From an uncultured virus (IMG/VR IMGVR_UViG_3300030098_002069) (taxonomy: Duplodnaviria; Heunggongvirae; Uroviricota; Caudoviricetes), in the IMG/VR virus record IMGVR_UViG_3300030098_002069, positions 1-64,000 of that record: a DNA stretch of 64,000 nt. The stretch is one strand, 5' to 3'. The position numbers and the translations under genes are program-made. Positions 1,315-61,874 of the stretch are shown here, in pieces. The notes below the pieces were generated by a model. The model was not told where the DNA came from, did no database searches, and worked only from the letters and a program-made list of their open reading frames with translations. Each line of letters begins with the position of its first letter. The stretch's first letter is position 1.

Positions 1315-1324
1315 AGGTTATTGA

Positions 1325-2323: not shown

Positions 2324-2335
2324 TATAGACTCCTA

Positions 2336-2779: not shown

Positions 2780-2792
2780 TTTTTTCTCCTAA

Positions 2793-21396: not shown

Positions 21397-21448
21397 TATA
21401 TTTTCCCTACCATCTTCATTAATTTGACATAATTCTTTAAATCTTTAA

Positions 21449-22378: not shown

Positions 22379-22390
22379 ATTATTTTCCTT

Positions 22391-29812: not shown

Positions 29813-29836
29813 TTTTTACTCCTATTCTTACTTCAA

Positions 29837-30724
29837 TCAAATTTTCCCAAGTAGAGCATCACTAAAGAGTTGCTCATCAGAACGAGGTTGCTCTGCTTTT
29901 CCTGTCTGCACCGCTGCAGCTTTAGGAACGCTTAAACGCTCTGCCTGATTTTGCATCTCTTGTGTTTTTTGTTGCACTACTGGGTTTGTATTTGATCTCA
30001 ATTCAAACAATTTAGCCAAGTTGTCCAGATTCAGGTTTTCAGGAGAACTAGCCCAATCTATGAACTCGTTAGCCTTACTGGCTTCCCATCCATAGTTATT
30101 CACAGCATGACTATGAGCTTGTTGTCTCATAGCATTTTGCTGTTGCATAGCCATCTGCTGTTGGTACTGTTGTTCCATTTGCATTGTTCTATTCCTGTCC
30201 ACATTCTTGAGATAGTCTAAATACTGATCTCTGTACTGCTCTTTAGCCATTCGATGCTTAAATGACTCACTCTCTGGGTCATTAAAAGCATCAACTTCGT
30301 TATAATTGACTGGTCTTTCAGGTTCTATTGGCTCCTTCAATGAATTTTGCTGAACTCCTTGCTCAGCAGGTACTCCATTGGAGAGTTTAGCTTCTAGACT
30401 ATCAAGAACCTCTGGATTCTGCCTAAGCATATTCTCTACAGGTGTTAAACTATTCCTGTAGTAATCCAGTTCTTCTCTAAGTCCAGACAGCTCACCCTTG
30501 GCTTTATCTGCCTGTGACTGCCAGTACTCATACCGACTTTGGTCGTCTTTAGGGTCGACTCCATTTCCCTCAGTTTCTGTAATTGGTGCTGCTTCCTGTT
30601 CAGGTGTAGAAGGTGCATCCTGTGGGATTTCACCTGAAGGTATTTCGTTGGCTATTTCGCCTTGAAACATCTCTACATCTTGTGTAGGAGCACTACCAGC
30701 ATCACGTACTTCCAATTTTTCCAT
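29837..30724 (-). CDS. capsid scaffolding protein (element B)
   Basis: Acidic/Gln-rich coiled coil, YWQSQADK motif; before MCP. Confidence 0.75.
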   Translation of the reverse strand: MEKLEVRDAGSAPTQDVEMFQGEIANEIPSGEIPQDAPSTPEQEAAPITETEGNGVDPKDDQSRYEYWQSQADKAKGELSGLREELDYYRNSLTPVENMLRQNPEVLDSLEAKLSNGVPAEQGVQQNSLKEPIEPERPVNYNEVDAFNDPESESFKHRMAKEQYRDQYLDYLKNVDRNRTMQMEQQYQQQMAMQQQNAMRQQAHSHAVNNYGWEASKANEFIDWASSPENLNLDNLAKLFELRSNTNPVVQQKTQEMQNQAERLSVPKAAAVQTGKAEQPRSDEQLFSDALLGKI

Positions 30725-30777
30725 ATTACTATTTCCTTTGCGATTTGGTTAATTCCAGCAACCGCTTCCTCAATTTT

Positions 30778-31146
30778 TTACTCAAAATCTTCAGCCCCTA
30801 TTGAGTTTTTTGTAATTCTTATAAACTCAGGACTTCTAAAAAGAGCGTCATCTGTATCTTGTTTAGGATTGGCACTTGAATATGCTGTTGATAAAATTAT
30901 CTCAGCTTTATCTTCTGGACTTGAAAATAAAAATTTTTCAAATTCAGGAGTTGCACTAACCCTGTCAAATACAGGTCTGTCTGTAAAATTTTTCCATATT
31001 TTCATATGGTCTTTAACTATTTGTGGATCGATACCATCATATTTAAACCAATAATTTTCATCCTTAACTGGTCTATGCCATCCTTTTTCGTTCTTTCTAG
31101 GAACTCTGCTTCTATGTTCCTTATTGTCTCCATACCAAATAGCCAT
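30778..31146 (-). CDS. hypothetical protein between portal and scaffold
   Basis: 122-aa ORF coupled to the portal stop. Confidence 0.6.
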   Translation of the reverse strand: MAIWYGDNKEHRSRVPRKNEKGWHRPVKDENYWFKYDGIDPQIVKDHMKIWKNFTDRPVFDRVSATPEFEKFLFSSPEDKAEIILSTAYSSANPKQDTDDALFRSPEFIRITKNSIGAEDFE

Positions 31147-33356
31147 TAGTTTTCTTCCAGACTTAATATGCGTTCATTCATTTGACGTTGTGGATTATCT
31201 CCAACATCCATCTCATTCTTAGCATTTTTTAGCTCATCGCCTAATCGTGTCTGATATAGTTTAGCTGCCATTTCTACTTTTGCTTCAGCCTTGGCAAGCT
31301 TCTTTTCAAATTCTTTGACCTCAACACGCTTTCTATCGTGTAATGATTCTCTCTGTGCAGTTTGGAGGTCACCTTTAAGCTTCTTGATTTCTTCTTCTTG
31401 CTGTTGTACCTGTCCCTGTAATTGTTGCATTTGCCCTGCTCTTTCAAGGACTCCTTCCATATCTGCAACATCAGTTTGTTTTAGTACTTCTATCTGGTCT
31501 ATAAGACCACTTTGATATAACTGCATATAGTACTCAAATCTCCCCCAGCGATTACTTGGGAGTGTTGAACCTGATAAAACAATAATATCATACTTACCTA
31601 CAGTAATATCATTCATCTTACCAACCACATTTCCTATATCATCATATAGAGGACTATTAACTACTATTTCTTTTGGTTTGTTATTAGGCTGCATCAATCT
31701 CATAACTTTTTGGTCTGTGTATACATATTGTATTAATCCCACAACAACACTACCTAATTGATTTAAACCTTCTTCAATATCATCTCTTTTAGACTTAATA
31801 CGTCTTTGTCCATATTCATCTAATGCAACTGTTCCTTTAAATGTTTGTGGTGCAGCTCCCTGATCCCCTTGCATTAAAGCGTATATTCCCAATATTCGTT
31901 CTATGTCTGCTTTTGCATCAGCTTCATTTTTGTATAATTCGTTTGGCAAGGGTACTGGCGATGCTACAATAGGACTACCTAACTCTGGGTCAAACTCTAT
32001 TACAGCAGTACCTGCTCTTCCCCAGTCCTGTTCTACTTGTGTTTTGTTAACTGCACCACGTGGTATTAAAAGTTTTACATTTGTACTACTAGATGCGTGA
32101 GCTACAATTAATGAACGTATCTTATTAATGTACTCTTGTAGTCCTTTTACCAGTCTAACATCACTAACTGGATAAGGATTTCTATTGAATCCATTCATAA
32201 AGGGTACTATTGGATACTCTTCTACAGGAAGAATCGCTTCATACAGCATCTGATCCCCTATACAAACACATTGTTTTATATTTGTTATCTCAATATTATT
32301 TGCTAAAATCTTTTTATCGTCTATTAAATGTCCCTTTGTAGCAATATCAATATGGGTAGTGCTATTAGGTATACTACCTTCATGCTCTTCACCTCTCATT
32401 GGTATTGGCTGTCCTGTAATTGGGTCTGGCATCATATGAAAAGTATCACCAAACTGCTCATGCATTTGCACATATCCTGTTACAGTAGGTTTGTCTGTAT
32501 AGATGTTTTGTCCATCTGGAGCTGTTATAATTACAATTGGCTCCTGCCTGTACTCTTCAAACTCCTGCATATTGAGAACTTTCTCTTCATTTGCAAAGGG
32601 GTCATATATCTTCATATATGGAATACGTATCTTGGTATATCTGTCAAATAACTCTAGTTCACGGTCACCAGTTATTGTTTCTCCTGATAATCTAGACTTT
32701 ACTGTTACATCTTGACTCTCACGACCATAGCGTGATTCAGATGGAGTATTAATATATTTAGTTTCTGTAGCTTGTCTAATTAATTCCTCATACTCTGGAT
32801 AAGCATCAACAAGCTGGTTCTGGGTAAGAATCTTACCAACTATAATATGACCAGCATCTCTAGCAAATGGGTCTTTTGAACTAGGGTCAAAGTAAACTTC
32901 TAGTGGGTCTATTGATTTTAAACAAACTTCTCCACGACCAAAGTCTTTATCTGGGTCTGTATAAGCTAACATTACCCCCATGCCTTTTACATAATAATCA
33001 TCAATTGCCTGTTTTAATTCCACATTGCCGTTAGAGTGATCCCATATATAAGACATTAAATCAGAGAATACTCTACCAACTTCCGTATCACTTGTTTCTC
33101 TACCTGTCGATTGGAATCTTGGTTTATTAGCAGTTAACATAGCTTTTGCTTGTTCAACTGCAGAATGGACTACATTTACTACAATAGGTTCCTGAGCACG
33201 AGCACGAAGTATCTTCGCCTGTTCTTCAGTCCATTGTTTGCCATTACGGAACTCATTATCCTCTACCGCCTGTTTTGCCCAGTTCTCTCTAGAAGAACTG
33301 TAATCTTTTAAAAGATCATGAGTTAACTGTACTTCTTTGTGTTTCTTATGAGACAA
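31146..33356 (-). CDS. portal protein, P22-like (element B)
   Basis: NGKQWT, PIVVNVV, YPIVPF, KGLQEYINKIRS; C-terminal coiled-coil barrel. Confidence 0.9.
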   Translation of the reverse strand: MSHKKHKEVQLTHDLLKDYSSSRENWAKQAVEDNEFRNGKQWTEEQAKILRARAQEPIVVNVVHSAVEQAKAMLTANKPRFQSTGRETSDTEVGRVFSDLMSYIWDHSNGNVELKQAIDDYYVKGMGVMLAYTDPDKDFGRGEVCLKSIDPLEVYFDPSSKDPFARDAGHIIVGKILTQNQLVDAYPEYEELIRQATETKYINTPSESRYGRESQDVTVKSRLSGETITGDRELELFDRYTKIRIPYMKIYDPFANEEKVLNMQEFEEYRQEPIVIITAPDGQNIYTDKPTVTGYVQMHEQFGDTFHMMPDPITGQPIPMRGEEHEGSIPNSTTHIDIATKGHLIDDKKILANNIEITNIKQCVCIGDQMLYEAILPVEEYPIVPFMNGFNRNPYPVSDVRLVKGLQEYINKIRSLIVAHASSSTNVKLLIPRGAVNKTQVEQDWGRAGTAVIEFDPELGSPIVASPVPLPNELYKNEADAKADIERILGIYALMQGDQGAAPQTFKGTVALDEYGQRRIKSKRDDIEEGLNQLGSVVVGLIQYVYTDQKVMRLMQPNNKPKEIVVNSPLYDDIGNVVGKMNDITVGKYDIIVLSGSTLPSNRWGRFEYYMQLYQSGLIDQIEVLKQTDVADMEGVLERAGQMQQLQGQVQQQEEEIKKLKGDLQTAQRESLHDRKRVEVKEFEKKLAKAEAKVEMAAKLYQTRLGDELKNAKNEMDVGDNPQRQMNERILSLEEN

Positions 33357-33427
33357 TTTGTACGTATATACCAGTTTTATCGATAAACTACATACTTAAA
33401 CTACTACATTAAGTGGAAAGTTCCAAA

Positions 33428-34903
33428 TTAAGCTATTTTCCAACTTATATCGTCTGATTTACGTGAATATTTTAGTTCTCCCTTGTCTTTTTTCTCTTTT
33501 TTGTGAAAAGGTGGATAGCATTTCTTCATTGCATAGTATAATCCATCTAATAAGTCATCATGCTTACCTCTAGGGTATAATAGTAATTCGTCTTTAAGGT
33601 CAAGCATAGATTTTTTCATATATACTTTACCCTGTGCAAAGAAGGGTTCCATTGTCTCTAGTCTGGATGATTTGCTATTTCTAGGTGTTTCTTTTATTTC
33701 TAATCCTGAAATAAATAGATTCTCTTCTTCTGTACGCTGCCTTAGATATTCTCTAAGCATTTCTTGATAGCCTACAGATTCTATACGAACCTTTACTGGT
33801 CTGTATATCTTAAAGTATTCAAGTATACTTTCAGCTAATTTCATGGGAGTTGCTCTTTTGCGGTAATATTCTAGAATATACCTGTTGTTTTTATTATCAA
33901 CTGCTACAGGCATTATAACCGAGTAGTCAGCTGTTTTGCGTATTGAGGATGCAGGATCAACTCCCATAAATACATTTACGGGGATTCTATTTTCCCCGTC
34001 ATCTAAGAAGTGCTGGTGGTCACTATCCATATCTAAAGAATAGTTATGATACTTAATATAAGCTTCTTTAAATAACTGGTCTTCATCACCAACTATCTGG
34101 CACAGGTATTCCCTGTAAAACACACTAACTCGTGCAATAGACTCCAGCTCTTCTTTCTTTTGTTGTAATTTTTTAATAGGTTGCCACTCTTCCCACAATG
34201 CAACGCCCCTATCCATGTCTGGGGCAAAGTGCATATTGTTCCAACCTTTCATTTCTTTTAATACCTCCACCAAGCAGCGTTGATGCTGTGGAGTTCCAAT
34301 AACAATAATCTTTCCTGTTTGCGGGTCTAGTGATGGAACGGCAGACTGCAATAACCATCTAAGATTTTGTTCCATTGCTTCAGCAGTTTTAGTATTGTTC
34401 TCATCCTCTGGGTCATCAACAATAATTAAGGTAGGTCTTTGAGAACCCACTTTAATACCACGTAACTGCTGTCCTGTTCCTTTGCATATAATCATAGAGC
34501 CATCTTTTAGCTCTACCTCTGATTTAGCCCATTGCCTAGCAGAATGTTGTCCCCAGTATCCATACACAGAACGAAACGTCTGGCTGTAATCCAGAGTATC
34601 CTTTATAGTACCCAATAACTTTATAGCATGATCCTGTGTTCTGGATACGAGGACAATCAATTTAGCACCCTCGTGATGCATGATGTGATATAGTGGATAT
34701 ACTCCACCTACTATGGAGGACTTTGCGTGACCACGAGGGGCTATTATGTTCACCTGACGGGAGGAATCGTCAAGGAGAACGTCTGCAATTTGATAATGAA
34801 AATCTGGAGAGGCTGCAGAGAACATACTAGGCATAGCTACCTTGCCGAACATAATCATATTGTTCTTTAATTTATTTATTACCTTTTTTCTATCTTCTTC
34901 CAC
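33428..34903 (-). CDS. terL: terminase large subunit (element B)
   Basis: APRGHAKS, LIIVDDPE, VIGTP, GVDPA, HDDLLDGL. Confidence 0.93.
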   Translation of the reverse strand: MEEDRKKVINKLKNNMIMFGKVAMPSMFSAASPDFHYQIADVLLDDSSRQVNIIAPRGHAKSSIVGGVYPLYHIMHHEGAKLIVLVSRTQDHAIKLLGTIKDTLDYSQTFRSVYGYWGQHSARQWAKSEVELKDGSMIICKGTGQQLRGIKVGSQRPTLIIVDDPEDENNTKTAEAMEQNLRWLLQSAVPSLDPQTGKIIVIGTPQHQRCLVEVLKEMKGWNNMHFAPDMDRGVALWEEWQPIKKLQQKKEELESIARVSVFYREYLCQIVGDEDQLFKEAYIKYHNYSLDMDSDHQHFLDDGENRIPVNVFMGVDPASSIRKTADYSVIMPVAVDNKNNRYILEYYRKRATPMKLAESILEYFKIYRPVKVRIESVGYQEMLREYLRQRTEEENLFISGLEIKETPRNSKSSRLETMEPFFAQGKVYMKKSMLDLKDELLLYPRGKHDDLLDGLYYAMKKCYPPFHKKEKKDKGELKYSRKSDDISWKIA

Positions 34904-51890: not shown

Positions 51891-52788
51891 ACTGATCTCC
51901 GAAAAATATATCTCCTAAGTTTGGATCCCAATCTCCAAACCAATTACCTTGTTTATATATATTGTCAGGTAACCAACCTTCCCCTCTTTTAATCCAAGGT
52001 ACGTTGTTTTGCAACCATCCACGAACACCCCTAACAGCTTTACGACCAGCTTCTCCACCAGTTGGTTTTGATGGCATATTATCATACTTCATTGGAAAAT
52101 CGTGGTCTACTAATTGACCCCTCATACCTAGTGGCATATTTTCTAACCAAGGCTTACCAATGTTTCTTTCAAATTCAACATCTGTTGTCATTGGGTGATA
52201 AGGATGATCTTTATTGTAAATTTGTTTTAAAAATGTTTCAGCATCATCACCATATTTTTTATGAGCTTGTTTTTCAGTTGGATAAGCACCCGCTGGTAAC
52301 CAACCACGTGCTGCTTTATCAGCTTTATCATAAGAAGTTAATTCTGGAACCCTACCTTTATCACCTAATGTATGACCCATAACTTCATGCCAAAATTCAT
52401 GAGGTACAACATCTGAATCTCTACCAGCATATCTAGGATTAATTAATATTCTTGCTGTATCAGTAGGAGCTGTTCTTGGCGTATAATAACCACCAGTTGT
52501 TTTTGATAAATCACTTCCATGATAATGACCACCTCTTGTATTACCATAAGCATTATATGCATCATGATGCATGTTTGCATACATTTTTAATCTACCAGCA
52601 TCAAATTCTTTTCTAATATCTGTAACCTTACTATCTAATCCTAAGTCATCTAAATATTTTTGACCAGCATCTTCTGGTAAGGTATTTAAAAAAGCATCAA
52701 CCCAAAGAGGAGAAACTTCACTTTTTTTTAAGTATTCTGGATATGGATAATCTTTACCCTGTTTCATTTTATATGCACCATTAGCCAT
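51889..52788 (-). CDS. zincin-like metallopeptidase-motif protein, probably virion-associated
   Basis: GGYY...ILINP...VVPHEFWHE (HExxH); coupled to the giant gene. Confidence 0.6.
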   Translation of the reverse strand: MANGAYKMKQGKDYPYPEYLKKSEVSPLWVDAFLNTLPEDAGQKYLDDLGLDSKVTDIRKEFDAGRLKMYANMHHDAYNAYGNTRGGHYHGSDLSKTTGGYYTPRTAPTDTARILINPRYAGRDSDVVPHEFWHEVMGHTLGDKGRVPELTSYDKADKAARGWLPAGAYPTEKQAHKKYGDDAETFLKQIYNKDHPYHPMTTDVEFERNIGKPWLENMPLGMRGQLVDHDFPMKYDNMPSKPTGGEAGRKAVRGVRGWLQNNVPWIKRGEGWLPDNIYKQGNWFGDWDPNLGDIFFGDQ

Positions 52789-55700
52789 TATGATTCTCCT
52801 AACATTTCTTCTATTTGTTCTTGCTGCAAACCTCTACGTTCAGCTCTTCTAAGTCTACTTCTAGCTGCATTAACTGGAAGCCTAAGTGTTATTTCACCTA
52901 CACGCTCTGGACTTTCAACAAGTTGTTTAATTTGTCGTATACCTCTACCAAAAGGAAACATAGTATATGCTGTATAACTACTAAACTTTTCCCAATCACC
53001 AGTCAACAATTCCCATGCTGCATCTGGTATTCTAGCAATTGGTGGCTTTAACAAGTTTAAAGCCCCTAGTTTAGAGCCAAAGAAAGCCATGTCACGTTCT
53101 CTTTTGTCTCCATATAACGAATCTGCAATAGATTGTATTGTATCTAATGGAGGTGCTAGTGCAGTATCAAAAATACTAAACATAAATGCACTACCCATTG
53201 CAAACATAAACATATCTATTGTATATATATCCTTAAATCTTTCGTATTCAGGTGTACCTTTCCTGAAACCATATAACTTAGCTTGTCTGTAAAACTCTTT
53301 ACGTACTCTTATAGAGTTCCAAACAAAAAGCTTGAATCTTGATAAAACTTTACCCATAGCAGTACGCATAAAAGCAGGTCTTGCTGAGTTCTGATATAAA
53401 AATTGAGTATTCTCTATGCCACGCATAGCCATATCAAAAACAAAGTCATCTTTTATAGATAGTTCTCTACCTTCTACACCATATCTATTAATAGTTTGTA
53501 TAGCATGTGCGGTAAAAGCATTTAAACGATTGACTTTTTCTGAGTGCTGCATAAAAAATGAACCATATTTTATCATAAGGTCTTTTACACCATACCTATC
53601 AATTACCTCTAATACAGTTTCTTCACCCTTACCTCTACCACTTTTCATAGCTTTAGTAATATCACGCTGTATATCTTTGATATTTACACCAGCTTTCTTT
53701 AAACCAGATGTTAAATCTGTGTTTACCTCAAATTCATTCTGTATAAAGTTGTCTATAACACCACGTTCTTCAAGATACTGAAGTAATTCTTTTTTAGTCT
53801 TAGCATATTTGCCATTGTTTAATTTAATTACTGGCTTACCATCTGCATCAGATAACAGTCTTTTATATATCTGTTTATCACTAAATGATCTAAAAAAGTT
53901 ACGCACCCCTGCACTACCAGCAGTCATAGCGTTACCACTAAATATATTAGTAGCCCACGTGCCTGTATTCGCCAGTAAACTCATTAACTGATACTGAGCC
54001 TCCATTCTACCAAATTCGTGGATTTTACGGCTAAAATACTCGATTCTAGCCTCCTTATCAACAGGAGCGTTCTTTATAAAAGGTGGTTTCCATCCTTTTC
54101 TCTCATATAAGTACTCATATCCTCTCACCATACTCTCATCAGAAGTTAAATAGAACAGGTTTTTCCTGTCTCTAAGCTTTAAAGGGTCTATCCCTTCTGT
54201 CATTCTAGTATTAAAATAAGATTGATGTCCTAAAATACTTTGCATATAAAGTCTAATGTAATCAGCCCAAACTTCTGGGTAGCTTTTGTAAACACTACCA
54301 TGTAATTTTAATTTTTCAGCTTTACTTACTTTATAACTTTTACTCATACCATGTAACATGTTATCAATTTCATATTGACCTTTTATTGCAGTAGCATTCT
54401 TATAATAGCCTCTAATTATTTTATCCATATAATCAGTAAGTAAAACAGGTCGTTTATCGTAACCAACCATATTAAATGCTCTGTCACGTAGTGGTGCTGG
54501 CATAGAACCCTGTTCATCAACAGTAACTTCTAGATCTTTTTCTGTAATTTTAGAAAAGTCAGCTAATAAAATATCTTTTAAAGACAGGGAATCTCCCTGT
54601 TCCATAGCTTTATTCTCCATTTTATATTGCCATTTTTGTGCATTTTCAATTGCAACTTCTTCTTTTACACCATTAGCAACGTCTTCAGCTATTCTTCTTT
54701 CTGTTTCAGTCTGTATCCATTCTTTAATTTCTCTACGTGCACCTTTATTGTATCCAAAATTCATATGGGGCATGTATTCACTATATTCAAACTTGCCTAT
54801 ACTTTGATAATTCTTACGATTCTTTAAACGAAAATCTTTTAAATCTTTTATATTTTTTTTACCTTGAATTAGCTTTTCTAATTTGTATTCAAATTGATAA
54901 CGCTTAAATCCTTCTGTACCAATTAAATTAATAATTTCAGGAGACTCAAGATTCTTTTCTATAACATTTAATCTAAAATGTTTATGGTCAAACTGACCAT
55001 CCTTATTCCATCTCATGTATTTATTTAATACACCACCTGTTTTTTTATACCAGCCATCAAAATCAGAATCTAATTCCCATTTACCTTGATTATCTGATAC
55101 TTTATTTTGATACCTATCTTTAGTATAAATAAACTTATCTCCAACATGCTCAAAAAACTTAGTGACATGCTTGTCTAGTCCTTCTAGTTTTTTTAATTCC
55201 TTAACATCTGTAGGTCTATATCCCTCTTCTCTGTATCTAAATAGTTCTTTAAATAATCTATGTTGCTCTTTAGCACTAAAATTATTTAAGTAATTAGTAA
55301 CAGGATCTAAGAATTTTTGACTAAAGTTTTTATCTTTAGTAATATGCATTTCTGCTCTTTGCCAATATTTACCTATTGAACCAATAGGAGAAGTAAAATG
55401 ATAAACAGGTTGCCATTCTAACCCCTTACTAGTCTTAACTAAACCATGATAAGCATAGTATGGTTTAAACATACCCTTACTAGAAAGCTTTTCATCAACA
55501 AAACGTGGGTCTAGGTGCCAGTATTTGAGCTTAAACTTCAATCCATAGGGGTCTCTTATACCTTCTATGTATTTATTTATAGCCATAACATCATCAAATG
55601 TTATAGTATCTGCTGACCTAGGCACACCCCCACCAGATAAAATACTAGTAAAATATTTAAACCATTCATTAAAGTTTTCAGAAAGTACCCTATGGTCTTC

Positions 55701-58700
55701 CATGTTTTTTCTAAACTCTTTTACTCCTTTAACCATATGGTCATTTAATGCCAGTAGGTTTAAGGCATCAGAATCTATAACCTCATTAATTGTCTCAAGC
55801 ACAGGTTCATTCCTACGCTTTTCAACATCTAATTTAATCTTGACTCGATCTTCTGGTTTAGATTCTTTCATAGATGTTCTTCTAAAAGTAAGATTTATTC
55901 TAGGCTTTCTGCCCTCTGTAGCCTTTGGTACAGAATGCAGGAATTGCTCTTGAGTCTCCCCTTGCATTATTAATAAATCATTTTCTTTTAAATTAATTCT
56001 ATAGTCCCTACCACCTTTTTTAATACTGTGTAGATTAAATGGTACTTCAGCACCAAAACTAACAGATGCTATAATAGGATTAGTACCTAACTCAGGTTCA
56101 TTATCTGCATGTCTACCGATACTATCTTTTTCGTTCCTGTATTTATTGACAAGCACCGAATTGAATTTTACTCCAGTAATATCTTCTATCTGTCTTTTTA
56201 TTGCAAGTATCTCTGGTATCCAAGGCTTAGGAGGAATTGGTTCTTTACCAGAATATGAATAATCTGTACCCTTGTCTCCATAGTATGCAGTTAACCTAGG
56301 TTCTTTCCTACCACCTATTTCACCCTGTTCCCATTCAATAGCAGCATCAAGTTTCTTCATGTCTACATTTTTAATCTTATTAATAAGATGAAGAATCTTT
56401 TTATTCTCATATTCAACAATTTTCGATTCAGGGTTTCTTCTTTCAGATATTTTAATAGGATCAACTTTTAGTTGAATGTCTTTTGTTAAGGCTCTATCAT
56501 ACATCTCTTCCATCTTTTGATAGTACTCACGCTTTGCTTCAAAAGGTATATTGCTAGAACCATGAATTGTTTTATTGTGATTTACCTCAGGTAAGTCTGC
56601 TTTTACATTCTTTTGTCTATACCCTGTTATAGGACTAAGTAATAAAGCATGAAAATAATCTAACAATGGCTTAGGACTTATCCCATTTTTTACTGCAAGG
56701 TCACTAAGGTCTTTGTTAGCTCTTTCTATCTTAGCCTCAAGCTCTACTATTCTTCCATCAGCTTCTTCTTTGCTTTCAGGTCTATTACGCATGAAAGCTT
56801 TTATTTTATTCTGTCTCTCTACTACCTCTGGTATTAATTTAGAAGTTATATCACCTTTAATATTTTTATCAGCTAATTCTTTATGGATTCTAATAAAATG
56901 CTTATGTAGTAATTCTATTGTACCTAATTGTCCATAGGTCTTTCCTATGCTATCTAATACTCTATTAAAATTATTTACTGCTGCAAGATTACTTATGTAT
57001 CCTTGACTATTAATTAACATATTATCAATAAGGATTCCTAAATGCTTTTCAACAAATTGAGAAATTTCTTTTTCAGAATAGCTTTTTAATGCACCTGTTC
57101 TAGATATTTCTATAGGCAATCTTTCTTTTATTGTCTTATGCGATTCAATTATATCAGGAAATCTTAGGTTATTAAGATTTATTCCCATATCATACATCTT
57201 ATTAACTAAGCTGGGGATAACAGTTTTTAATGCTTTATCACCATGAATTTTACTTTTAACCCAATTAATAGTATGAGCCATGTCATGTAAACTCATAGAA
57301 TCTTTTACATATAAATCTGATATTCTATATACAGCATTTTCTTTAGAGTTTCTATCTCTAGTAACTCTATATCTAACATCGTTAATACTAGTATTAGCAG
57401 TTTCTCCAATTTCTAATCCAATAGAGTCTATAAAATCTAACGGAACAAAGAATTTGTTTTTTAAAGTCTTCTTACCAAACGTATCTGTTTTATAAATAAA
57501 GTCTTTTATTTTTTTTATACTTAAACTTTTAGGAGTAGAAAGAGGCTTTGCTACATTAATAGCATCTCTTATTGCAGCTAAATGAGACTTGTTTCCCCAT
57601 TCATTTATTTCTTTATATCCAAAATATCTATCACCATCTAGGTTAGAACCCATAACCTTTTCACCAGTAGTCTTACTATATACTTCTGTTTTAAAAGCAG
57701 AATCAAATAACATCCTTCTAAAATTAGGATAATCAATAACTGTTGGGTCATTACTTGCATCAGCAGATTTATTAACAATAAGTGTACCTAAGTCTCTAAA
57801 GTATTGATCCCTTGTTTGTCCATTAACAAGACCATCTTTTAAACTAACTGTGGCTTCATATTCTTTACCATTTACTCCTTTAAATGAAAAGGAATAATTA
57901 CCACCATTTAATTTGACATAATCAATCCAGTTCTGCATTACTATCTTTGCAGAAAGACCATAGCCTAAACCACCCTTGCCTTTATTTGAACCCTCTGCTA
58001 CTTTATGTCTATAAGCTGGGGAAAATAAAAAGCTTCTAAAATATATATCATTACCTTCTTTATAACCTTTATCTCCCTCTTGTAACTTATATCCCTTGTA
58101 TCTCTGTATTTCATTTTCTGAAATATTAGGATCAGTAAATTCTTTTTCTAACCTATCTCTATACTCACCCTTTAAATGTGCTCTTTCACTAGCAACATCT
58201 TTAAATTTTTTAGTTAACTTATTAGAGAATCCTTGGAATATCTTAATACTGTCTGAGTCTTTATCTGCTCCACCAAGATATACGTTGTCTTTGTGGTGGG
58301 TAAAGGATCCAGCACCTCTCTGCCCCGTAAAACCCCTAAAACGTAAGACACGTGTACCAGACATGCTGTCAGCAGGAGTACGAATAGCCAAGAGATTAAA
58401 TGTCGTATTCCACTTTGCCACGTCAGGTTTTGACATCCCCTTATTATGGGATTTGCGATACTGCACCCAAGCTTCGCCCAACGTGACTGGCTCGTTCCTA
58501 ATATCCAAATTAGTCTGTTTAACATCTATTCCTTTTTCAAATAATATATTTATTAAATCTTTTTCTGGTATATATCTATTATTAATAGGCATATTTCTAA
58601 AAGCCTCATCAAGATATACTTCTCCTTCACGGAGATTTCTTGTTTTTTTCTTAGGGTCTATATCTACATACATCATTTGGTCAGGTGTAAATGCCTTCAA

Positions 58701-61700
58701 CCAAGATTTACCACCATGTTCTATATATGGATTAGAGAACCTACGAACAAGATACTTTTTGTATGCATTATGCCAATTGTCTTTAAATAAAACATTACGA
58801 ACAAGATATGTATCACGCATAGCCTCTGATAATAATTTATTTGTAGCATGGAACTGTTTATAATCTGCATTTGCATCAAACTCAAAGTCCATATCAAAGA
58901 AACCTTCCTTATCTAGCTTGTTTAGTTTATCCATAAACAAACGAGTTATCTTTGGTTCCTTGTTTTTTAAAACATAATCACGAACAAACTCAAAAGGTAT
59001 TTCCATTACCCCAAGGTCATGCTCATTCATTAACTTTATAAAACCCTTTACATCTTTTCCCTCTGTCTTTTCAAAAGCCCTAACAAGCTCCCTACCCCTA
59101 GCTGAACCAGCTAATGATGGTTCTATTACTTCTTTAAAATATTCTTTTGCAAATTCAGGAGCTTGTATTTCATTTGACTGACCATATAACTGTATAGGTA
59201 TTTCCTCACCTTTAATAGCCTTTACTACATTTTCAAACGTACCTGTACTTAATTGTAAATTATCTATAGGAAATTCATATATCTTTAATGGGTCTCTATT
59301 AAATAATTCTATTTGAGGTTTTTTAGTACCCCCTGTAGTCTCATACCAACCTTTTTTATACCCTATATCACTTGTTTGATGTTCACCCCTTAGCTTTGCA
59401 GAACTATCAAAAACAAGAAAGTCTACATTATTGGCTTCCATAAACTTATCCCAAACCTCATTAGCACGCTGTCCATTTGATTTAGTAGCAAATGTTCCAA
59501 GATTAGTAGCACCAACTAATACTGGCTTGTAATGACCAGATTTAGGATCAAGTCCTATTGCATGTGCCCCCGCATCATAAAAAGCTTTTCTTATTATAAT
59601 ACCACCATCTGTATCACTAGATTCTTTTTCTTGATGTTTTGGTGCTGTGGTATTTATATCTTTTATAATTACTACACGCATTAATCCATCAGGATTTGTT
59701 TTCTTAAAACTTAAAGGTGACAATGGAGTCATTCTATTAGAAAGTAACTGCATACGCTTATTAAAATCAGCAACGCTTTTACCATATCCCTTACCTAGTA
59801 ATCTATGTAATTGATTTAAGTTAGGTGCATTAGGGTCTACTAATTTATTATTAGCAGCATGATGCATTACGTTAGAAATCCACTTACGCTCATGGTTACT
59901 ATTCTCACCAAAAACACTTTTCTCAACTCTCTCTGAATGCTCATAAGATTTACGTATTGCCAATAATTTTACATTATCTCCCTGTGATAAAGCTTCAAAT
60001 ATCATTTCTTTTGTAAGCTGTATATTGCCTAAGCTATCTGCATAGTTAGCAGTCATTAAGAAGTCTTTATCTTTAACACCACTATATATGTACTTGCCAG
60101 ATTCATTTAATGCGTTCTGTACTAGCTTTAATCTGGCTGGACTTAGTTCAAATTTTACATTAGAACCATCAATTCTATTTTTTAATATTTTAAATGGCTT
60201 ACCATTTTCATCAATTCCATGAGTAAGAAATCTAAATCCCTTACCATAACCAATATATTCTAATGGTAGCTTATGGTATCTTTCCCCTATAGATACAGCA
60301 CCTACTTGTTGATTATCTGCTGTTTCTACAGTAGCATATGTCTTACCATTACGCTTAGATAGTTTAATATAATGTACTTTTTGTAAGGGCTCGACATCAC
60401 TATGCCAATGTTGTCTTAGTTTTCTTTCATGTTTTTTAAATACTTTATCACCAAGAATGTTTTTCATTCTTTCTATAAAAACTTCTACTTGTGGATCTTG
60501 ACCCTTTTTACCTAAACTTGCACTACGTGCCCCTTCCACAGCATCAGTAAAAGACTTTATATTTGTAAAAATATCTTTTTCTATATCGTTATACATACGT
60601 TCAGATAATTGATTAACACGATTCCTCTTTAATACAACATCATCTGTAAAGTCAGATTGCTGACTATTATATAACGCTTCTGAATTACTTATAGCATCCT
60701 GTATTCTCTCTATTAATCTAGTATCTATAGTATCCCTTGCTTTCTTTCTGTAATAAGAATGAATATCTTGTTCTTTAAAACTTTTTTCAGTCTTATTATA
60801 GTAATCTACAGCACGGTCTCTCCATTTGTATTCAGGAAAATGATGCTCTAAATAACCTAATGCTGAACCAGTAGAGCCTTTTAAACCCTCTGAGTTCTTA
60901 AAAGAAGGCATAGGGTGTTCTTCTATTATATATTTTCTAGTTTTTTTACTTAAATATTTAAAGTCTCTAGCAAGTTCTGGGTCTACTATATCTCGTATAT
61001 CCCTAGAAAATCTTCCCTCTCCTTGCTTTTCTCCCAGCAGCCACTTACCAGCAGCAGCTTCATGTGCAGGTCTAGTATTATATCCAAAGAAACCACCTAG
61101 TAAATATTCATATATCTGCATTTCCGTAGGGTCACCACGTAATGTAGATGGGATTCCCATAAACATTGATGCAACACCAGCTCTAAGTCTTTTGTTAGCA
61201 GTATCTATTTGAGCAGGAGTACCCTTATATAGTTTACCTACTGATACAAAATTACCTATACCACCGAATGCACCACCTGCTATAGCACCACCAACAAATG
61301 CATCAGCCATTATATCCTTACCCTTCCATACAGAACTAACAGCACTAGCAACACCAAGACCTAATGCTTCTTCAGTAATAGCTCTTGTCTTTGCACCTTT
61401 ACGTAAAAAATCTAATGTTTCTAGTTTAGATTTATTTAAACTAACATCCATTAATTTTTTAGTACCCCTAGATGCAATCATTGGAACTGCCATAGCATCT
61501 AAAGTATCTATACCAGATTGTATGGCTTTATAGAATCCTGTATTGCCAAATGGTTTTCTAAGAAGAGACAATGGAGCTTTCATAATAGCTGGAGCAAACC
61601 CAGCAAGATGCCCCAATTGTCTAAAGATTGCTTCTCCAGTATTGCGTGGTTCTTTAGGGATGAGATCAAATGTAGTTAATCCCTCAATAAACCCAGCTTG

Positions 61701-61874
61701 AGCCTGTTGCAATCCTCTTCTTAAACTAAAATCAGATTGCATTCTTTTGAATCTTATCTGATTAATTTCAGCAAGGTATTCTAGTTCATCTAACTGATCG
61801 TCAGAGAACATATCAGGGTTAGCCCTGTATGTGTTGATTAGGCTTTTTACTTTATAGCCTTCGTAACTAGCCAA
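52788..61874 (-). CDS. giant internal virion protein: putative two-barrel RNA polymerase with inserted AlkB dioxygenase
   Basis: 3028 aa; DTDGGIII (about 59600), LAIRTPAD (about 58380), LGGADKDSD (58251-58277); AlkB HAD/H/RINLTFR at 55873-56340; Gly/Ala-rich N-terminus. Confidence 0.8.
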   Translation of the reverse strand: MASYEGYKVKSLINTYRANPDMFSDDQLDELEYLAEINQIRFKRMQSDFSLRRGLQQAQAGFIEGLTTFDLIPKEPRNTGEAIFRQLGHLAGFAPAIMKAPLSLLRKPFGNTGFYKAIQSGIDTLDAMAVPMIASRGTKKLMDVSLNKSKLETLDFLRKGAKTRAITEEALGLGVASAVSSVWKGKDIMADAFVGGAIAGGAFGGIGNFVSVGKLYKGTPAQIDTANKRLRAGVASMFMGIPSTLRGDPTEMQIYEYLLGGFFGYNTRPAHEAAAGKWLLGEKQGEGRFSRDIRDIVDPELARDFKYLSKKTRKYIIEEHPMPSFKNSEGLKGSTGSALGYLEHHFPEYKWRDRAVDYYNKTEKSFKEQDIHSYYRKKARDTIDTRLIERIQDAISNSEALYNSQQSDFTDDVVLKRNRVNQLSERMYNDIEKDIFTNIKSFTDAVEGARSASLGKKGQDPQVEVFIERMKNILGDKVFKKHERKLRQHWHSDVEPLQKVHYIKLSKRNGKTYATVETADNQQVGAVSIGERYHKLPLEYIGYGKGFRFLTHGIDENGKPFKILKNRIDGSNVKFELSPARLKLVQNALNESGKYIYSGVKDKDFLMTANYADSLGNIQLTKEMIFEALSQGDNVKLLAIRKSYEHSERVEKSVFGENSNHERKWISNVMHHAANNKLVDPNAPNLNQLHRLLGKGYGKSVADFNKRMQLLSNRMTPLSPLSFKKTNPDGLMRVVIIKDINTTAPKHQEKESSDTDGGIIIRKAFYDAGAHAIGLDPKSGHYKPVLVGATNLGTFATKSNGQRANEVWDKFMEANNVDFLVFDSSAKLRGEHQTSDIGYKKGWYETTGGTKKPQIELFNRDPLKIYEFPIDNLQLSTGTFENVVKAIKGEEIPIQLYGQSNEIQAPEFAKEYFKEVIEPSLAGSARGRELVRAFEKTEGKDVKGFIKLMNEHDLGVMEIPFEFVRDYVLKNKEPKITRLFMDKLNKLDKEGFFDMDFEFDANADYKQFHATNKLLSEAMRDTYLVRNVLFKDNWHNAYKKYLVRRFSNPYIEHGGKSWLKAFTPDQMMYVDIDPKKKTRNLREGEVYLDEAFRNMPINNRYIPEKDLINILFEKGIDVKQTNLDIRNEPVTLGEAWVQYRKSHNKGMSKPDVAKWNTTFNLLAIRTPADSMSGTRVLRFRGFTGQRGAGSFTHHKDNVYLGGADKDSDSIKIFQGFSNKLTKKFKDVASERAHLKGEYRDRLEKEFTDPNISENEIQRYKGYKLQEGDKGYKEGNDIYFRSFLFSPAYRHKVAEGSNKGKGGLGYGLSAKIVMQNWIDYVKLNGGNYSFSFKGVNGKEYEATVSLKDGLVNGQTRDQYFRDLGTLIVNKSADASNDPTVIDYPNFRRMLFDSAFKTEVYSKTTGEKVMGSNLDGDRYFGYKEINEWGNKSHLAAIRDAINVAKPLSTPKSLSIKKIKDFIYKTDTFGKKTLKNKFFVPLDFIDSIGLEIGETANTSINDVRYRVTRDRNSKENAVYRISDLYVKDSMSLHDMAHTINWVKSKIHGDKALKTVIPSLVNKMYDMGINLNNLRFPDIIESHKTIKERLPIEISRTGALKSYSEKEISQFVEKHLGILIDNMLINSQGYISNLAAVNNFNRVLDSIGKTYGQLGTIELLHKHFIRIHKELADKNIKGDITSKLIPEVVERQNKIKAFMRNRPESKEEADGRIVELEAKIERANKDLSDLAVKNGISPKPLLDYFHALLLSPITGYRQKNVKADLPEVNHNKTIHGSSNIPFEAKREYYQKMEEMYDRALTKDIQLKVDPIKISERRNPESKIVEYENKKILHLINKIKNVDMKKLDAAIEWEQGEIGGRKEPRLTAYYGDKGTDYSYSGKEPIPPKPWIPEILAIKRQIEDITGVKFNSVLVNKYRNEKDSIGRHADNEPELGTNPIIASVSFGAEVPFNLHSIKKGGRDYRINLKENDLLIMQGETQEQFLHSVPKATEGRKPRINLTFRRTSMKESKPEDRVKIKLDVEKRRNEPVLETINEVIDSDALNLLALNDHMVKGVKEFRKNMEDHRVLSENFNEWFKYFTSILSGGGVPRSADTITFDDVMAINKYIEGIRDPYGLKFKLKYWHLDPRFVDEKLSSKGMFKPYYAYHGLVKTSKGLEWQPVYHFTSPIGSIGKYWQRAEMHITKDKNFSQKFLDPVTNYLNNFSAKEQHRLFKELFRYREEGYRPTDVKELKKLEGLDKHVTKFFEHVGDKFIYTKDRYQNKVSDNQGKWELDSDFDGWYKKTGGVLNKYMRWNKDGQFDHKHFRLNVIEKNLESPEIINLIGTEGFKRYQFEYKLEKLIQGKKNIKDLKDFRLKNRKNYQSIGKFEYSEYMPHMNFGYNKGARREIKEWIQTETERRIAEDVANGVKEEVAIENAQKWQYKMENKAMEQGDSLSLKDILLADFSKITEKDLEVTVDEQGSMPAPLRDRAFNMVGYDKRPVLLTDYMDKIIRGYYKNATAIKGQYEIDNMLHGMSKSYKVSKAEKLKLHGSVYKSYPEVWADYIRLYMQSILGHQSYFNTRMTEGIDPLKLRDRKNLFYLTSDESMVRGYEYLYERKGWKPPFIKNAPVDKEARIEYFSRKIHEFGRMEAQYQLMSLLANTGTWATNIFSGNAMTAGSAGVRNFFRSFSDKQIYKRLLSDADGKPVIKLNNGKYAKTKKELLQYLEERGVIDNFIQNEFEVNTDLTSGLKKAGVNIKDIQRDITKAMKSGRGKGEETVLEVIDRYGVKDLMIKYGSFFMQHSEKVNRLNAFTAHAIQTINRYGVEGRELSIKDDFVFDMAMRGIENTQFLYQNSARPAFMRTAMGKVLSRFKLFVWNSIRVRKEFYRQAKLYGFRKGTPEYERFKDIYTIDMFMFAMGSAFMFSIFDTALAPPLDTIQSIADSLYGDKRERDMAFFGSKLGALNLLKPPIARIPDAAWELLTGDWEKFSSYTAYTMFPFGRGIRQIKQLVESPERVGEITLRLPVNAARSRLRRAERRGLQQEQIEEMLGES

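What the first reader, a model, noticed from the sequence alone, without database searches (positions are those of the whole stretch)
55873..56340. Intact ALKBH2/3-type AlkB domain inserted mid-protein
Seen: EPRLTAYYGD..YSYSG...W...FNSVLVNKYRNEKDSIGRHADNEPELG...IASVSFG...LLIMQGETQ..FLHSVPK...RINLTFR, with the full HxD...H iron triad and RxxxxxR 2-oxoglutarate motif. The flanks resemble each other (IKISERRNPES before, IKLDVEKRRNEP after), which suggests a domain insertion. Known: AlkB enzymes oxidatively remove alkyl lesions (1mA, 3mC) from ssDNA/RNA and occur in plant virus replicases and some phage polyvalent proteins. Inference: the enzyme is co-injected with the DNA and either cleans the template ahead of the polymerase or erases host-imposed marks.
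Basis: partly seen in the sequence, partly recalled or inferred. Interest (0 to 1): 0.8.

Follow-up and report, generated by a model that had tools for sequence, protein, structure and literature searches.

The report
AlkB repair cassette inside phage polymerase
An uncultured marine phage carries a complete AlkB-type DNA/RNA de-methylating enzyme as an optional, exchangeable in-frame insert inside a giant RNA polymerase of the kind some phages inject with their DNA, so a base-cleaning activity probably reaches the host cell before any phage gene is expressed.

Summary
Window 55873-56340 lies on the minus strand inside one 3028-aa ORF (52788-61874). Residues 1838-1998 match Pfam 2OG-FeII_Oxy_2 (E 3.8e-29). 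The iron ligands H1922, D1924 and H1980 and the 2-oxoglutarate motif R1992...R1998 are intact. The nearest solved relative is human ALKBH3.

It is an insertion: a 603-nt in-frame cassette that is absent from relatives with up to 98% identical backbones.

The host protein is a two-barrel RNA polymerase. Its fold matches the virion RNA polymerase gp66 of phage phi14:2 and QDE-1, and a DxDxD motif is invariant across the family.

In 121 homologous giant proteins, AlkB is present in 13 rows and sits in four different slots. Cassettes that are 85-87% identical sit in backbones only 41-45% identical, so the cassette moves horizontally. In relatives the same slots hold DUF4326-like, HExxH or SLOG domains.

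The cassette is under strong purifying selection (dN/dS 0.03-0.06), and independent metagenome contigs span both junctions.

Virion packaging, injection and the substrate are inferred, not shown. I found no paper describing this arrangement. Earlier notes of this scan report similar cassettes in other phages.

The parts
52788..61874 (-). Giant ORF of 3028 aa (TTG start; a public gene call, P0002, starts 21 codons later and has 3007 aa). It is the host protein of the cassette.
55857..56459 (-). AlkB cassette: 201 codons (aa 1806-2006), 603 nt, in frame. The DNA alignment places the indel at about 55861-56463. The boundary is ambiguous by a few nt because of a roughly 6-nt imperfect microhomology (TRANCC) at both edges.
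55869..56426 (-). AlkB catalytic fold, aa 1817-2002. Pfam match at aa 1838-1998 (nt 55881-56363).
56103..56111 (-). H1922-A-D1924, the first two ligands of the Fe(II) facial triad.
55935..55937 (-). H1980, the third Fe(II) ligand.
55881..55901 (-). R1992-INLTF-R1998, the 2-oxoglutarate-binding RxxxxxR motif.
56403..56453 (-). N-terminal tether of the cassette, aa 1808-1824. Predicted with pLDDT under 50, so probably flexible.
55788..55868 (-). C-terminal tether, aa 2003-2029. pLDDT under 50.
57615..59957 (-). Two-barrel RNA polymerase core, aa 640-1420 (modelled, pLDDT 85.4).
58251..58265 (-). D1204-K-D1206-S-D1208, the family-invariant DxDxD motif within LGGADKDSDS. The upstream R1165-x-P1167-x-D1169-S1170 is also invariant.
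53307..53834 (-). C-terminal region with sub-threshold similarity to the PLxRFG domain of giant phage proteins, aa 2681-2856.

Best explanation
The feature is a complete ALKBH3-like Fe(II)/2-oxoglutarate dioxygenase. It is encoded by a 603-nt in-frame cassette in a poorly conserved linker of a 3028-aa single-chain two-barrel RNA polymerase. That polymerase belongs to the class of crAss-like phage virion polymerases (phi14:2 gp66) and QDE-1.

Shown here:
- The domain is intact and folds like ALKBH3/ALKBH2.
- It is flanked by low-confidence tethers.
- It is under strong purifying selection.
- It is optional: backbones up to 98% identical lack it.
- It belongs to a cassette lineage that has moved between distantly related polymerase genes and into four different slots.

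Inferred:
- The giant protein is packed in the virion and enters the cell with the DNA, as gp66 does.
- The tethered AlkB then uses host Fe(II), 2-oxoglutarate and O2 to remove N1-methyladenine or N3-methylcytosine-type lesions from the single-stranded template or the nascent RNA of the injected polymerase, before any phage gene is expressed.
- These lesions would otherwise block the first round of transcription.
For: Domain identity and integrity:
- Pfam E 3.8e-29.
- PDB phmmer: ALKBH3 E 2.7e-32, ALKBH2 E 5.4e-25, E. coli AlkB E 3.4e-4.
- Fold: Z 24.4 to ALKBH3, 23.5 to ALKBH2, 18.0 to E. coli AlkB.
- HxD, H and RxxxxxR are kept in 10 of 10 aligned cassettes.

Selection: dN/dS of the cassette is 0.027-0.064 against L002, L021 and L022. 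The flanks give 0.078-0.251.

Insertion and optionality:
- 13 of 121 family rows carry AlkB.
- P0010 and P0004 are 98.1% identical and differ by a 201-aa indel.
- P0037/P0067 (97.1%), P0035/P0053 (96.3%) and P0043/P0072 (97.9%) likewise differ by the cassette.
- The DNA indel is exactly 603 nt.
- The backbone tree needs at least 10 changes of AlkB state for 11 AlkB-bearing rows among 107.

Mobility:
- Four slots, shown by non-collinear BLAST and by segment lengths.
- P0042 and P0043: AlkB 87% identical, backbones 42-45%.
- P0033 and P0037: AlkB 85% identical, backbones 41-42%, in different slots.
- In the AlkB tree, 142 mostly short AlkB hits of the representative search lie on one side of a branch with 97% support. 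The cassettes of the giant proteins lie on the other side.

Polymerase:
- Foldseek 6vr4_A E 2.5e-10.
- VIA-align: QDE-1 Z 18.4 with 458 residues aligned; 6vr4_A Z 13.0 with 570 aligned.
- DxDxD is invariant.

Functional context: gp66 is virion-packaged, transcribes early genes and strongly prefers single-stranded DNA in vitro (passages of bioRxiv 10.1101/2020.03.07.982082). That fits an ALKBH3-like enzyme.

Tethers: pLDDT is under 50 at aa 1808-1824 and 2003-2029.

Not an assembly artefact.
Against: - No activity, packaging or injection data exist for this protein or for any family member. No member is in the 50,697 cultured-phage records: the N- and C-terminal parts gave no tblastn match.
- Similarity to gp66 is structural only (11-12% identity), and this is not shown to be a crAss-like phage.
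- 108 of 121 family rows do without AlkB, so it is dispensable.
- N1-A and N3-C are base-paired in packaged double-stranded DNA, so the lesion load on a virion genome may be low.
- The companion cassettes in relatives (DUF4326-like, SLOG) belong to NAD/ADP-ribose conflict themes (passages of PMC9503650). That points towards counter-defence as much as towards repair.
- By fold, ALKBH3 and ALKBH2 are tied within 1 Z unit, so a single-strand preference is not established.
- The 73-kb record itself may be a join of two phages.
Confidence: 0.6

Rival explanations
1. Counter-defence rather than damage repair. The injected AlkB erases alkyl marks that the host, or a chemical defence of the host community, places on incoming phage DNA or early RNA. 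It would be one item of an exchangeable first-minute toolkit.
For: - The cassette is optional and turns over fast between near-identical phages, as expected for arms-race genes.
- In relatives the same slots hold DUF4326-like, cpYpsA/SLOG and HExxH domains.
- DUF4326 and SLOG are discussed as parts of NAD/ADP-ribose virus-host conflict systems (passages of PMC9503650 and PMC7824862).
- The jumbo-phage review argues that sporadic phage AlkB may reset methyl marks rather than repair DNA (passage of PMC7824862).
Against: - I know of no bacterial defence that acts by N1-A or N3-C methylation of phage nucleic acid (recalled, not searched).
- The DUF4326 matches are just below Pfam's cut-off: 18.8-24.3 bits against 25.
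- Nothing in the window links the cassette to a particular host system.
Confidence: 0.22
2. Host-directed takeover. The injected AlkB demethylates host RNA (for example m1A or m3C in tRNA or rRNA) or host DNA to alter translation or host physiology early in infection.
For: - ALKBH3-type enzymes act on RNA as well as on ssDNA (established knowledge of the family; abstract of PMC2553587 seen in the listing).
- Polyvalent injected proteins often carry host-modifying enzymes (passages of PMC5512222 and PMC9503650).
Against: - Tethering to the polymerase in four different slots suggests that what matters is being on the polymerase, next to its template and product.
- One enzyme molecule, or a few, per virion is a small dose against a cellular RNA pool (inference).
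Confidence: 0.1
3. A decaying passenger or an assembly artefact without function.
For: - Most relatives lack it.
- The record that holds it may be chimeric elsewhere.
Against: - dN/dS is 0.03-0.06.
- All catalytic residues are kept in 10 of 10 cassettes.
- The junctions are present in separately assembled contigs and in contigs of runs from other studies.
Confidence: 0.02

Closest known systems
Human ALKBH3 and ALKBH2, and E. coli AlkB (direct-reversal DNA/RNA dealkylases)
   Same: Same fold and catalytic residues. By sequence: ALKBH3 E 2.7e-32, ALKBH2 E 5.4e-25, E. coli AlkB E 3.4e-4. By fold: Z 24.4, 23.5 and 18.0. Identity to ALKBH3 over the aligned fold is 38-39%.
   Different: Here the enzyme is not a free-standing protein. 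It is an internal module of a 3028-aa polymerase, bounded by predicted flexible tethers. Its substrate is untested.
Virion-packaged RNA polymerase gp66 of crAss-like Cellulophaga phage phi14:2 (PDB 6VR4), and QDE-1-type two-barrel polymerases
   Same: The polymerase core of the host protein (aa 640-1395) aligns with gp66 residues 799-1639: Foldseek E 2.5e-10; VIA-align Z 13.0 with 570 residues aligned. It also aligns with QDE-1 (Z 18.4). It has an invariant DxDxD motif.
   Different: Identity is 11-12%. The protein is about 850 residues longer and relatives' contigs are 36-50 kb, not about 100 kb. No AlkB or other inserted enzyme domain came up in the passages of the gp66 preprint returned for my search terms ('insertion': 0 occurrences; AlkB itself was not among the terms).
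AlkB domains inside replicase polyproteins of plant Flexiviridae and related RNA viruses
   Same: An AlkB domain is built into a viral polymerase polyprotein, with a sporadic distribution. Those viral AlkBs are reported to repair methylated RNA and DNA (PMC2553587 title and start of abstract, and PMC544882, both seen in the listing).
   Different: A different polymerase class (RdRp replicase versus DNA-dependent two-barrel RNAP), a different virus realm and an RNA genome. Here the cassette occupies several alternative slots and alternates with other enzyme cassettes.
Polyvalent proteins of phages and conjugative elements (Iyer et al. 2017, PMC5512222)
   Same: A very large protein with several enzymatic domains, whose architecture differs between close relatives and which is proposed to be delivered with the DNA. 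The C-terminal region has a sub-threshold PLxRFG-domain match.
   Different: The main text of that paper mentions neither AlkB, 2OG, dioxygenase, DUF4326 nor SLOG (0 occurrences each). Its nine occurrences of 'RNA polymerase' in the six passages shown concern host RNAP or N4 references. The PLxRFG match is far below NCBI's cut-off: 26.7 bits against 100.
Free-standing AlkB genes of jumbo phages
   Same: AlkB homologues in phage genomes: 14 records matched, all under 60% identity, mostly phages of 156-595 kb. They are noted as sporadic in PMC7824862.
   Different: Where the records are annotated, the annotated features are named only AlkB, alkylated-DNA repair or hypothetical protein. I did not check gene lengths or neighbours, so that they are free-standing is my assumption. 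The best hit, LR756511.1, has no annotation.

Membership tests
AlkB family of Fe(II)/2-oxoglutarate dioxygenases (Pfam PF13532) | Profile match above the curated threshold | tested here: met
   102.7 bits against a cut-off of 31.2, E 3.8e-29, profile positions 17-194 of 194. The record holds a single match.
AlkB family of Fe(II)/2-oxoglutarate dioxygenases (Pfam PF13532) | HxD...H iron triad and RxxxxxR 2-oxoglutarate motif | tested here: met
   H1922, D1924, H1980, R1992 and R1998. They align with the same motifs of ALKBH3 and are kept in 10 of 10 family cassettes.
AlkB family of Fe(II)/2-oxoglutarate dioxygenases (Pfam PF13532) | Double-stranded beta-helix fold with the AlkB N-terminal extension | tested here: met
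   The predicted model of aa 1817-2002 aligns with ALKBH3 residues 73-279: Z 24.4, rmsd 2.1 A, 183 residues aligned. This is a predicted, not a solved, structure; domain pLDDT is 52-87.
AlkB family of Fe(II)/2-oxoglutarate dioxygenases (Pfam PF13532) | Fe(II)/2OG-dependent oxidative dealkylation of 1mA or 3mC | not testable with these tools
   Needs an enzyme assay.
ALKBH3-like subgroup (single-strand DNA/RNA preference) as against ALKBH2-like | Closer to ALKBH3 than to ALKBH2 in sequence and in fold | tested here: inconclusive
   Sequence favours ALKBH3: E 2.7e-32 against 5.4e-25, and 38-39% against 31% identity. The fold scores are tied within 1 Z unit: 24.4 against 23.5.
Two-barrel (DPBB) single-chain RNA polymerases of the crAss-like virion RNAP / QDE-1 class | Fold match covering both barrels | tested here: met
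   Model pLDDT 85.4, pTM 0.85. 6vr4_A: Foldseek E 2.5e-10, probability 1.00. QDE-1 Z 18.4 with 458 aligned; RDR2 Z 17.3; 6vr4_A Z 13.0 with 570 aligned; phage P32 gp64 Z 12.8.
Two-barrel (DPBB) single-chain RNA polymerases of the crAss-like virion RNAP / QDE-1 class | Catalytic aspartate triad DxDxD | tested here: met
   D1204, D1206 and D1208 are invariant or nearly so in 121, 53 and 26 sequences.
Two-barrel (DPBB) single-chain RNA polymerases of the crAss-like virion RNAP / QDE-1 class | Packaged in the virion and injected; transcribes early genes | not testable with these tools
   Known for gp66. Inferred here by homology only.
Polyvalent proteins (Iyer et al. 2017) | Many enzymatic domains in one polypeptide, with an architecture that varies between close relatives | tested here: met
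   AlkB, DUF4326-like, HExxH and cpYpsA cassettes are present or absent between proteins 90-98% identical.
Polyvalent proteins (Iyer et al. 2017) | Signature conserved domain (PLxRFG-type C-terminal region) | tested here: inconclusive
   NCBIfam NF032893: 26.7 bits, E 1.8e-6, against a cut-off of 100, in P0001. It matched 3 of 14 members scanned. tblastn E 0.04-0.9 to PLxRFG/DarB-like proteins. PHROG 11358 E 3.4e-5.
Inteins and homing elements (considered as the cause of the in-frame mobility) | Hint or homing-endonuclease domain in or beside the insert | tested here: not met
   Pfam finds only PF13532 and one sub-threshold unrelated match in the whole protein. The 201-aa insert is filled by the AlkB fold plus two short tethers.

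The most novel reading that the evidence does not exclude
This family of giant injected RNA polymerases is a chassis for a shared pool of in-frame, horizontally exchanged enzyme cassettes: AlkB, DUF4326-like, HExxH peptidase-like and SLOG. The cassettes hop between at least four, and probably eight or more, permissive slots, and between polymerase genes only about 40% identical. Together they form a customisable, pre-loaded kit that strips chemical marks (methyl, ADP-ribose-derived) from the incoming genome or its first transcripts. This would imply that host or environmental base modification of entering phage DNA is a common, still unrecognised barrier in the sea. It would also imply a recombination route that favours in-frame domain transfer.
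Probability: 0.3. Interest if true: 0.85.

Novelty: new variant of a known kind. Interest (0 to 1): 0.65.

Why it matters
- It places a direct-reversal repair enzyme on the one protein that must read the phage genome before any phage gene is expressed. This makes a concrete question testable: do alkyl lesions or marks on entering DNA limit infection in the ocean?
- It shows unusually fast in-frame domain turnover inside an essential polymerase. Proteins 96-98% identical differ by whole enzymes, and the same cassette is found in four slots. That is a natural map of permissive insertion sites in a two-barrel RNA polymerase.
- It parallels the AlkB domains of plant-virus replicases. This suggests convergent pressure on very different viral polymerases to carry their own dealkylase.
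- I found no paper describing AlkB in a virion RNA polymerase. Searches: over the open PMC and bioRxiv library only.

Tried and rejected
- Flank duplication as an insertion scar: rejected. The protein score is at chance and the DNA shares only an 8-nt match. No flank duplication was seen at the junctions of the other sister pairs (P0035/P0053, P0037/P0067). Only a roughly 6-nt imperfect microhomology sits at the DNA breakpoints.
- Recent transfer of the cassette between the window and L002: not shown. The whole gene is a mosaic of 78-99.7% nt identity per 300 nt, and the AlkB part (98-98.7%) does not stand out.
- Cultured relatives: tblastn of aa 1-1825 and of aa 2009-3028 against 50,697 phage records found nothing at E 1e-5.
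- phmmer of P0024 (DUF4326-like and HExxH cassettes) against PDB sequences: 0 hits at E 0.1.
- The ESM Atlas look-up of the HExxH cassette was not possible because the protein is too long. I had no DNA for it, so I dropped it.
- A closer AlkB-less DNA partner in IMG/VR: none found. The metagenome scan gave L023, about 88% identical at protein level.
- RNA evidence: no RNA holder was listed among the 21 runs, so nothing can be said on expression.
- In the laid runs, parts of the stretch had no cover in X6, X8 and X10. This is not used as evidence.
- Earlier notes of this scan for this genome or this sequence: none.
- Whether the five non-family rows near the cassettes in the AlkB tree are pieces of giant proteins: P0123 is (62.7% identity to P0079 over 1430 aa). 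For P0122, P0124, P0126 and P0180 only the AlkB part matches this family, so the cassette lineage is not shown to be exclusive to it.
Full report
**1. The observation**

The plus-strand frame of 55873-56340 is full of stops. The peptide lies inside one uninterrupted ORF, window 52788-61874(-), of 3028 aa.

- Pfam gives 2OG-FeII_Oxy_2 (PF13532) at aa 1838-1998: E 3.8e-29, 102.7 bits against a gathering score of 31.2.
- PHROGs gives 'alkylated DNA repair', E 2.1e-22.
- The iron ligands H1922, D1924 and H1980 and the 2-oxoglutarate motif R1992-x5-R1998 are present.
- Against PDB sequences the best matches are human ALKBH3 (E 2.7e-32), then ALKBH2 (5.4e-25), then E. coli AlkB (3.4e-4). In all, 21 distinct sequences matched, and the HxD, H and RxxxxxR motifs are aligned.
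- A model of aa 1300-2240 (mean pLDDT 76.0) places an AlkB fold at aa 1817-2002. It aligns with ALKBH3 8jnk_G at Z 24.4 (rmsd 2.1 A, 183 residues aligned, 38% identity), with ALKBH2 at Z 23.5 and with E. coli AlkB at Z 18.0.

So 'intact ALKBH2/3-type AlkB domain' is confirmed. By sequence it is nearer ALKBH3; by fold the two are tied.

**2.

A word-indexed search found 125 giant homologues, of which 120 are listed. They are 1868-3364 aa long and come almost all from marine metagenomes.

- In a MAFFT alignment of these plus the query, column occupancy is 4-9% over aa 1860-1999 and rises towards the cassette edges. The flanks are at about 0.9.
- The closest AlkB-less relatives read '...QLKV|EPKDRPDIKLDVENRRNEP...'. 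The window reads '...QLKV[DPIKISERRNPES...AlkB...TSMKES]KPEDRVKIKLDVEKRRNEP...'.
- At DNA level an AlkB-less metagenome contig (L023) differs from the window, L021 and L022 by one exact 603-nt in-frame gap. Only a roughly 6-nt imperfect microhomology (TRANCC) sits at both edges.
Its alignment score of 21 is reached by 1529 of 5000 shuffles and by 169 of 2787 other windows of the same protein. The DNA of the two flanks shares only an 8-nt match.
- In the model the AlkB fold is bounded by stretches with pLDDT under 50 (aa 1808-1824 and 2003-2029). The family is poorly conserved there. The cassette therefore sits in what looks like a flexible inter-domain linker.

**3. It is not an assembly artefact**

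The same junctions occur in separately assembled contigs:

- L026 is 100% identical across the slot.
- L002/L019 carries the AlkB part at 99.5% aa identity.
- L021 and L022 carry it at about 94%.

Logan contigs of runs that are not flagged as the possible source also bridge the junctions. X14 has an 866-nt contig over 55813-56678, which covers both junctions. X8 covers 55963-56700 and X6 covers 56070-56509, each crossing the N-terminal junction. No joints or indels were reported in the four runs laid. All laid data are contigs, not raw reads.

**4. The cassette is maintained by selection**

dN/dS of the AlkB part is 0.064, 0.042 and 0.027 against L021, L022 and L002. The flanks give 0.078-0.251. 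All 10 of 10 aligned cassettes from the family keep HxD, H and RxxxxxR.

**5. The host protein**

A model of aa 640-1420 (pLDDT 85.4, pTM 0.85) was searched against PDB.

- By Foldseek the best hit is the virion-packaged RNA polymerase gp66 of crAss-like phage phi14:2 (6vr4_A, E 2.5e-10). QDE-1, RDR2 and AR9 nvRNAP chains follow.
- By VIA-align: QDE-1 Z 18.4 (458 aligned), RDR2 Z 17.3, 6vr4_A Z 13.0 (570 aligned; model residues 1-756 to gp66 799-1639), and phage P32, P74 and P23-45 polymerases Z 10.9-12.8.
- The family-invariant residues include R1165-x-P1167-x-D1169-S1170 and LGGAD1204-x-D1206-x-D1208.

So the core is a single-chain two-barrel RNA polymerase.

The C-terminal 350 residues are the best-conserved part. 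They give sub-threshold hits to the PLxRFG domain of giant phage proteins:

- NF032893: 26.7 bits against a cut-off of 100, E 1.8e-6, matched in 3 of 14 members scanned.
- PHROG 11358: E 3.4e-5.
- tblastn: E 0.04-0.9.

No cultured phage has a detectable homologue of the N- or C-terminal parts. The gene lies in a minus-strand block with large unannotated genes and a lysis module, next to a divergent plus-strand replication block. No hit annotated as RNA polymerase appeared among the 51 ORFs scanned with PHROGs.

According to passages of the gp66 preprint, that enzyme is packaged, enters the cell, transcribes early genes, and transcribes single-stranded or denatured DNA far better than duplex DNA (bioRxiv 10.1101/2020.03.07.982082). 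Packaging and injection of the protein studied here are inferences from this homology.

**6. The cassette is optional, mobile and one of several**

Distribution. AlkB is present in 13 of 121 rows, two of which are the window's own protein. Among IMG/VR loci that cover this slot, 3 of 13 have it.

Four slots. These are defined by anchor columns and confirmed by non-collinear BLAST:

| Slot (P0001 numbering) | Rows with AlkB |
|---|---|
| aa 1208-1289, just after the catalytic loop | P0035, P0043, P0078, P0042 |
| aa 1289-1372 | P0037 |
| aa 1372-1692 | P0033 |
| aa 1773-2123 | P0001/P0002, P0010, P0011, P0030, P0079, P0095 |

Sister pairs. Near-identical backbones differ by the cassette:

| Pair | Backbone identity |
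|---|---|
| P0010 / P0004 | 98.1% |
| P0043 / P0072 | 97.9% |
| P0037 / P0067 | 97.1% |
| P0035 / P0053 | 96.3% |

A fragment, P0190, runs from AlkB into a backbone 95.8% identical to the AlkB-less P0024.

Backbone tree. This was a FastTree run on 107 rows and 647 columns. Fourteen near-identical or truncated rows were left out: P0002, P0005-P0009, P0011, P0014, P0056-P0059, P0080 and P0082. The tree needs at least 10 changes of AlkB state for 11 AlkB-bearing rows.

Horizontal transfer. Cassettes are much more alike than their hosts:

| Pair | AlkB identity | Backbone identity | Note |
|---|---|---|---|
| P0042 / P0043 | 87% | 42-45% | same slot |
| P0033 / P0037 | 85% | 41-42% | different slots |
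| P0030 / P0042 | 47% | 57-64% | the reverse pattern |

AlkB tree. This was an IQ-TREE quick run with LG+G4, supported by SH-aLRT only, on 162 rows. One hundred and forty-two mostly short (174-507 aa) AlkB hits of the representative search lie on one side of a branch with 97% support. I did not check that they are free-standing proteins. On the other side lie the 15 giant-protein cassettes, P0123 (a fragment of a family member) and four rows whose flanks do not match this family.

Other cassettes:

- The window's slot holds a DUF4326-like domain in P0038, which is 94% identical to the AlkB-bearing P0030 and 90% to the empty P0036.
- It holds an HExxH-motif domain in P0073, P0076 and P0033.
- The same two domains turn up in other slots.
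- A cpYpsA SLOG domain (PF12694, E 1.3e-17) sits in yet another slot in P0117.
- The DUF4326 matches are just below Pfam's cut-off (18.8-24.3 bits against 25). The HExxH domain has no Pfam or PDB sequence match.

**7. How it most likely works**

Shown: an intact, selected dealkylase module is tethered to a two-barrel RNA polymerase.

Inferred: the protein travels in the virion and is injected. AlkB then uses cytoplasmic Fe(II), 2-oxoglutarate and O2 to remove N1-methyladenine or N3-methylcytosine-type lesions from the single-stranded template or the nascent RNA of the first transcription round. The single-strand preference of gp66 and the ALKBH3-like sequence fit this.

The main rival is that the marks removed are imposed by the host or its community (counter-defence). 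The fast turnover and the company of DUF4326-like and SLOG cassettes speak for that. Those domains are discussed as parts of NAD/ADP-ribose conflict systems in passages of PMC9503650 and PMC7824862. A host-directed role, or no role at all, is less likely.

**8. Comparison with what is known, and novelty**

- AlkB domains inside plant-virus replicases are known (PMC2553587 and PMC544882, seen in the listing).
- AlkB homologues, annotated as AlkB or repair genes, occur in jumbo phages (passage of PMC7824862).
- Polyvalent injected proteins are known, but the main text of that paper does not mention AlkB, 2OG or dioxygenase (PMC5512222).
- Full-text searches found no paper describing AlkB in a virion RNA polymerase. 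The searches were 'AlkB' + 'virion RNA polymerase' + 'phage', 'polyvalent protein' + 'AlkB', 'crAss' + 'AlkB', 'crAss-like' + 'AlkB', and 'vRNAP' + '2OG-Fe' + 'phage'. The library holds only open PMC papers and bioRxiv.
- Earlier AI notes of this scan report AlkB cassettes in virion polymerases of crAss-like phages. One note describes a marine phage with AlkB just after the catalytic loop. These are leads, not independent support.

I rate the finding a new variant of a known kind.

**9. Caveat on the record**

The 73,241-b record has two head modules. Window 20163-24429 is 70-94% identical to positions 68485-73241 of the record. Contigs of relatives are 36-50 kb. The record may join two related phages. 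This does not touch the giant gene, which is collinear with independent contigs.

Noticed in passing
window 355-7768 and 28454-34903; window 20163-24429 against G000 68485-73241 (L018 4485-9241): The record has two sets of terminase, portal and major head genes, with different GC (about 0.40 against 0.33-0.39). It also has a diverged internal repeat (70-94% identity) that reaches its very end. Relatives' contigs are 36-50 kb. The 73-kb record that CheckV rates 100% complete may be a join of two related phages.
   Followed up: partly
relatives P0038, P0110, P0024, P0035 (proteins; no window coordinates): A roughly 110-130-aa DUF4326-like cassette (GNPF...DSHA motifs; Pfam 18.8-24.3 bits against a cut-off of 25 in three of the four, no Pfam hit in P0024) sits in four different slots of the same polymerase family, including the slot that holds AlkB in the window.
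   Followed up: partly
relatives P0073, P0076, P0033, P0045, P0024, P0088: A recurring roughly 110-aa cassette with an HExxH motif ('...ITINK..LKKKY..KAWTKPKV.GV...FVI.HE.AH') occupies four different slots. It has no Pfam family, and the one cassette-bearing protein searched against PDB sequences (P0024) gave no hit. It may be a metallopeptidase that could process the giant protein.
   Followed up: partly
relatives P0117 (aa 2649-2803), P0102 and P0121 (slot aa 299-530), P0120: A cpYpsA SLOG domain (PF12694, E 1.3e-17) and SLOG-like GGAxGAD stretches are inserted in further slots. Inserts without any match were seen in P0098, P0119, P0075, P0085, P0025 and P0099.
   Followed up: no
window 52788-61874 against L002 3952-13068: The giant genes of two closely related phages are a mosaic. 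Nucleotide identity per 300 nt ranges from 78% (aa 1401-1700) to 99.7%, as expected from frequent recombination between co-circulating phages.
   Followed up: partly
window 61265-61874 (aa 1-200 region) and 52791-53900 (C-terminal region): The N-terminal roughly 300 aa (glycine-rich hydrophobic GGAIAGGAFGGIGNF, invariant GHLxGF) and the C-terminal roughly 370 aa (hydrophobic stretches, invariant PFGR) are the most conserved parts of the family and have constant length. They may serve packaging or ejection. Neither was modelled.
   Followed up: no
window 14712-15347 and 15727-16689: Two DNA methyltransferase genes (PHROG 757 E 1.9e-26; PHROG 67 E 3.3e-81) lie in the part of the record that may belong to the second phage.
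   Followed up: no
L018 3344-4105 and 4109-4501 (G000 67344-68501): A metallophosphoesterase (PHROG 221, E 1.5e-31) and an endolysin (PHROG 465, E 6.7e-45) lie a few genes upstream of the giant gene on the same strand.
   Followed up: no
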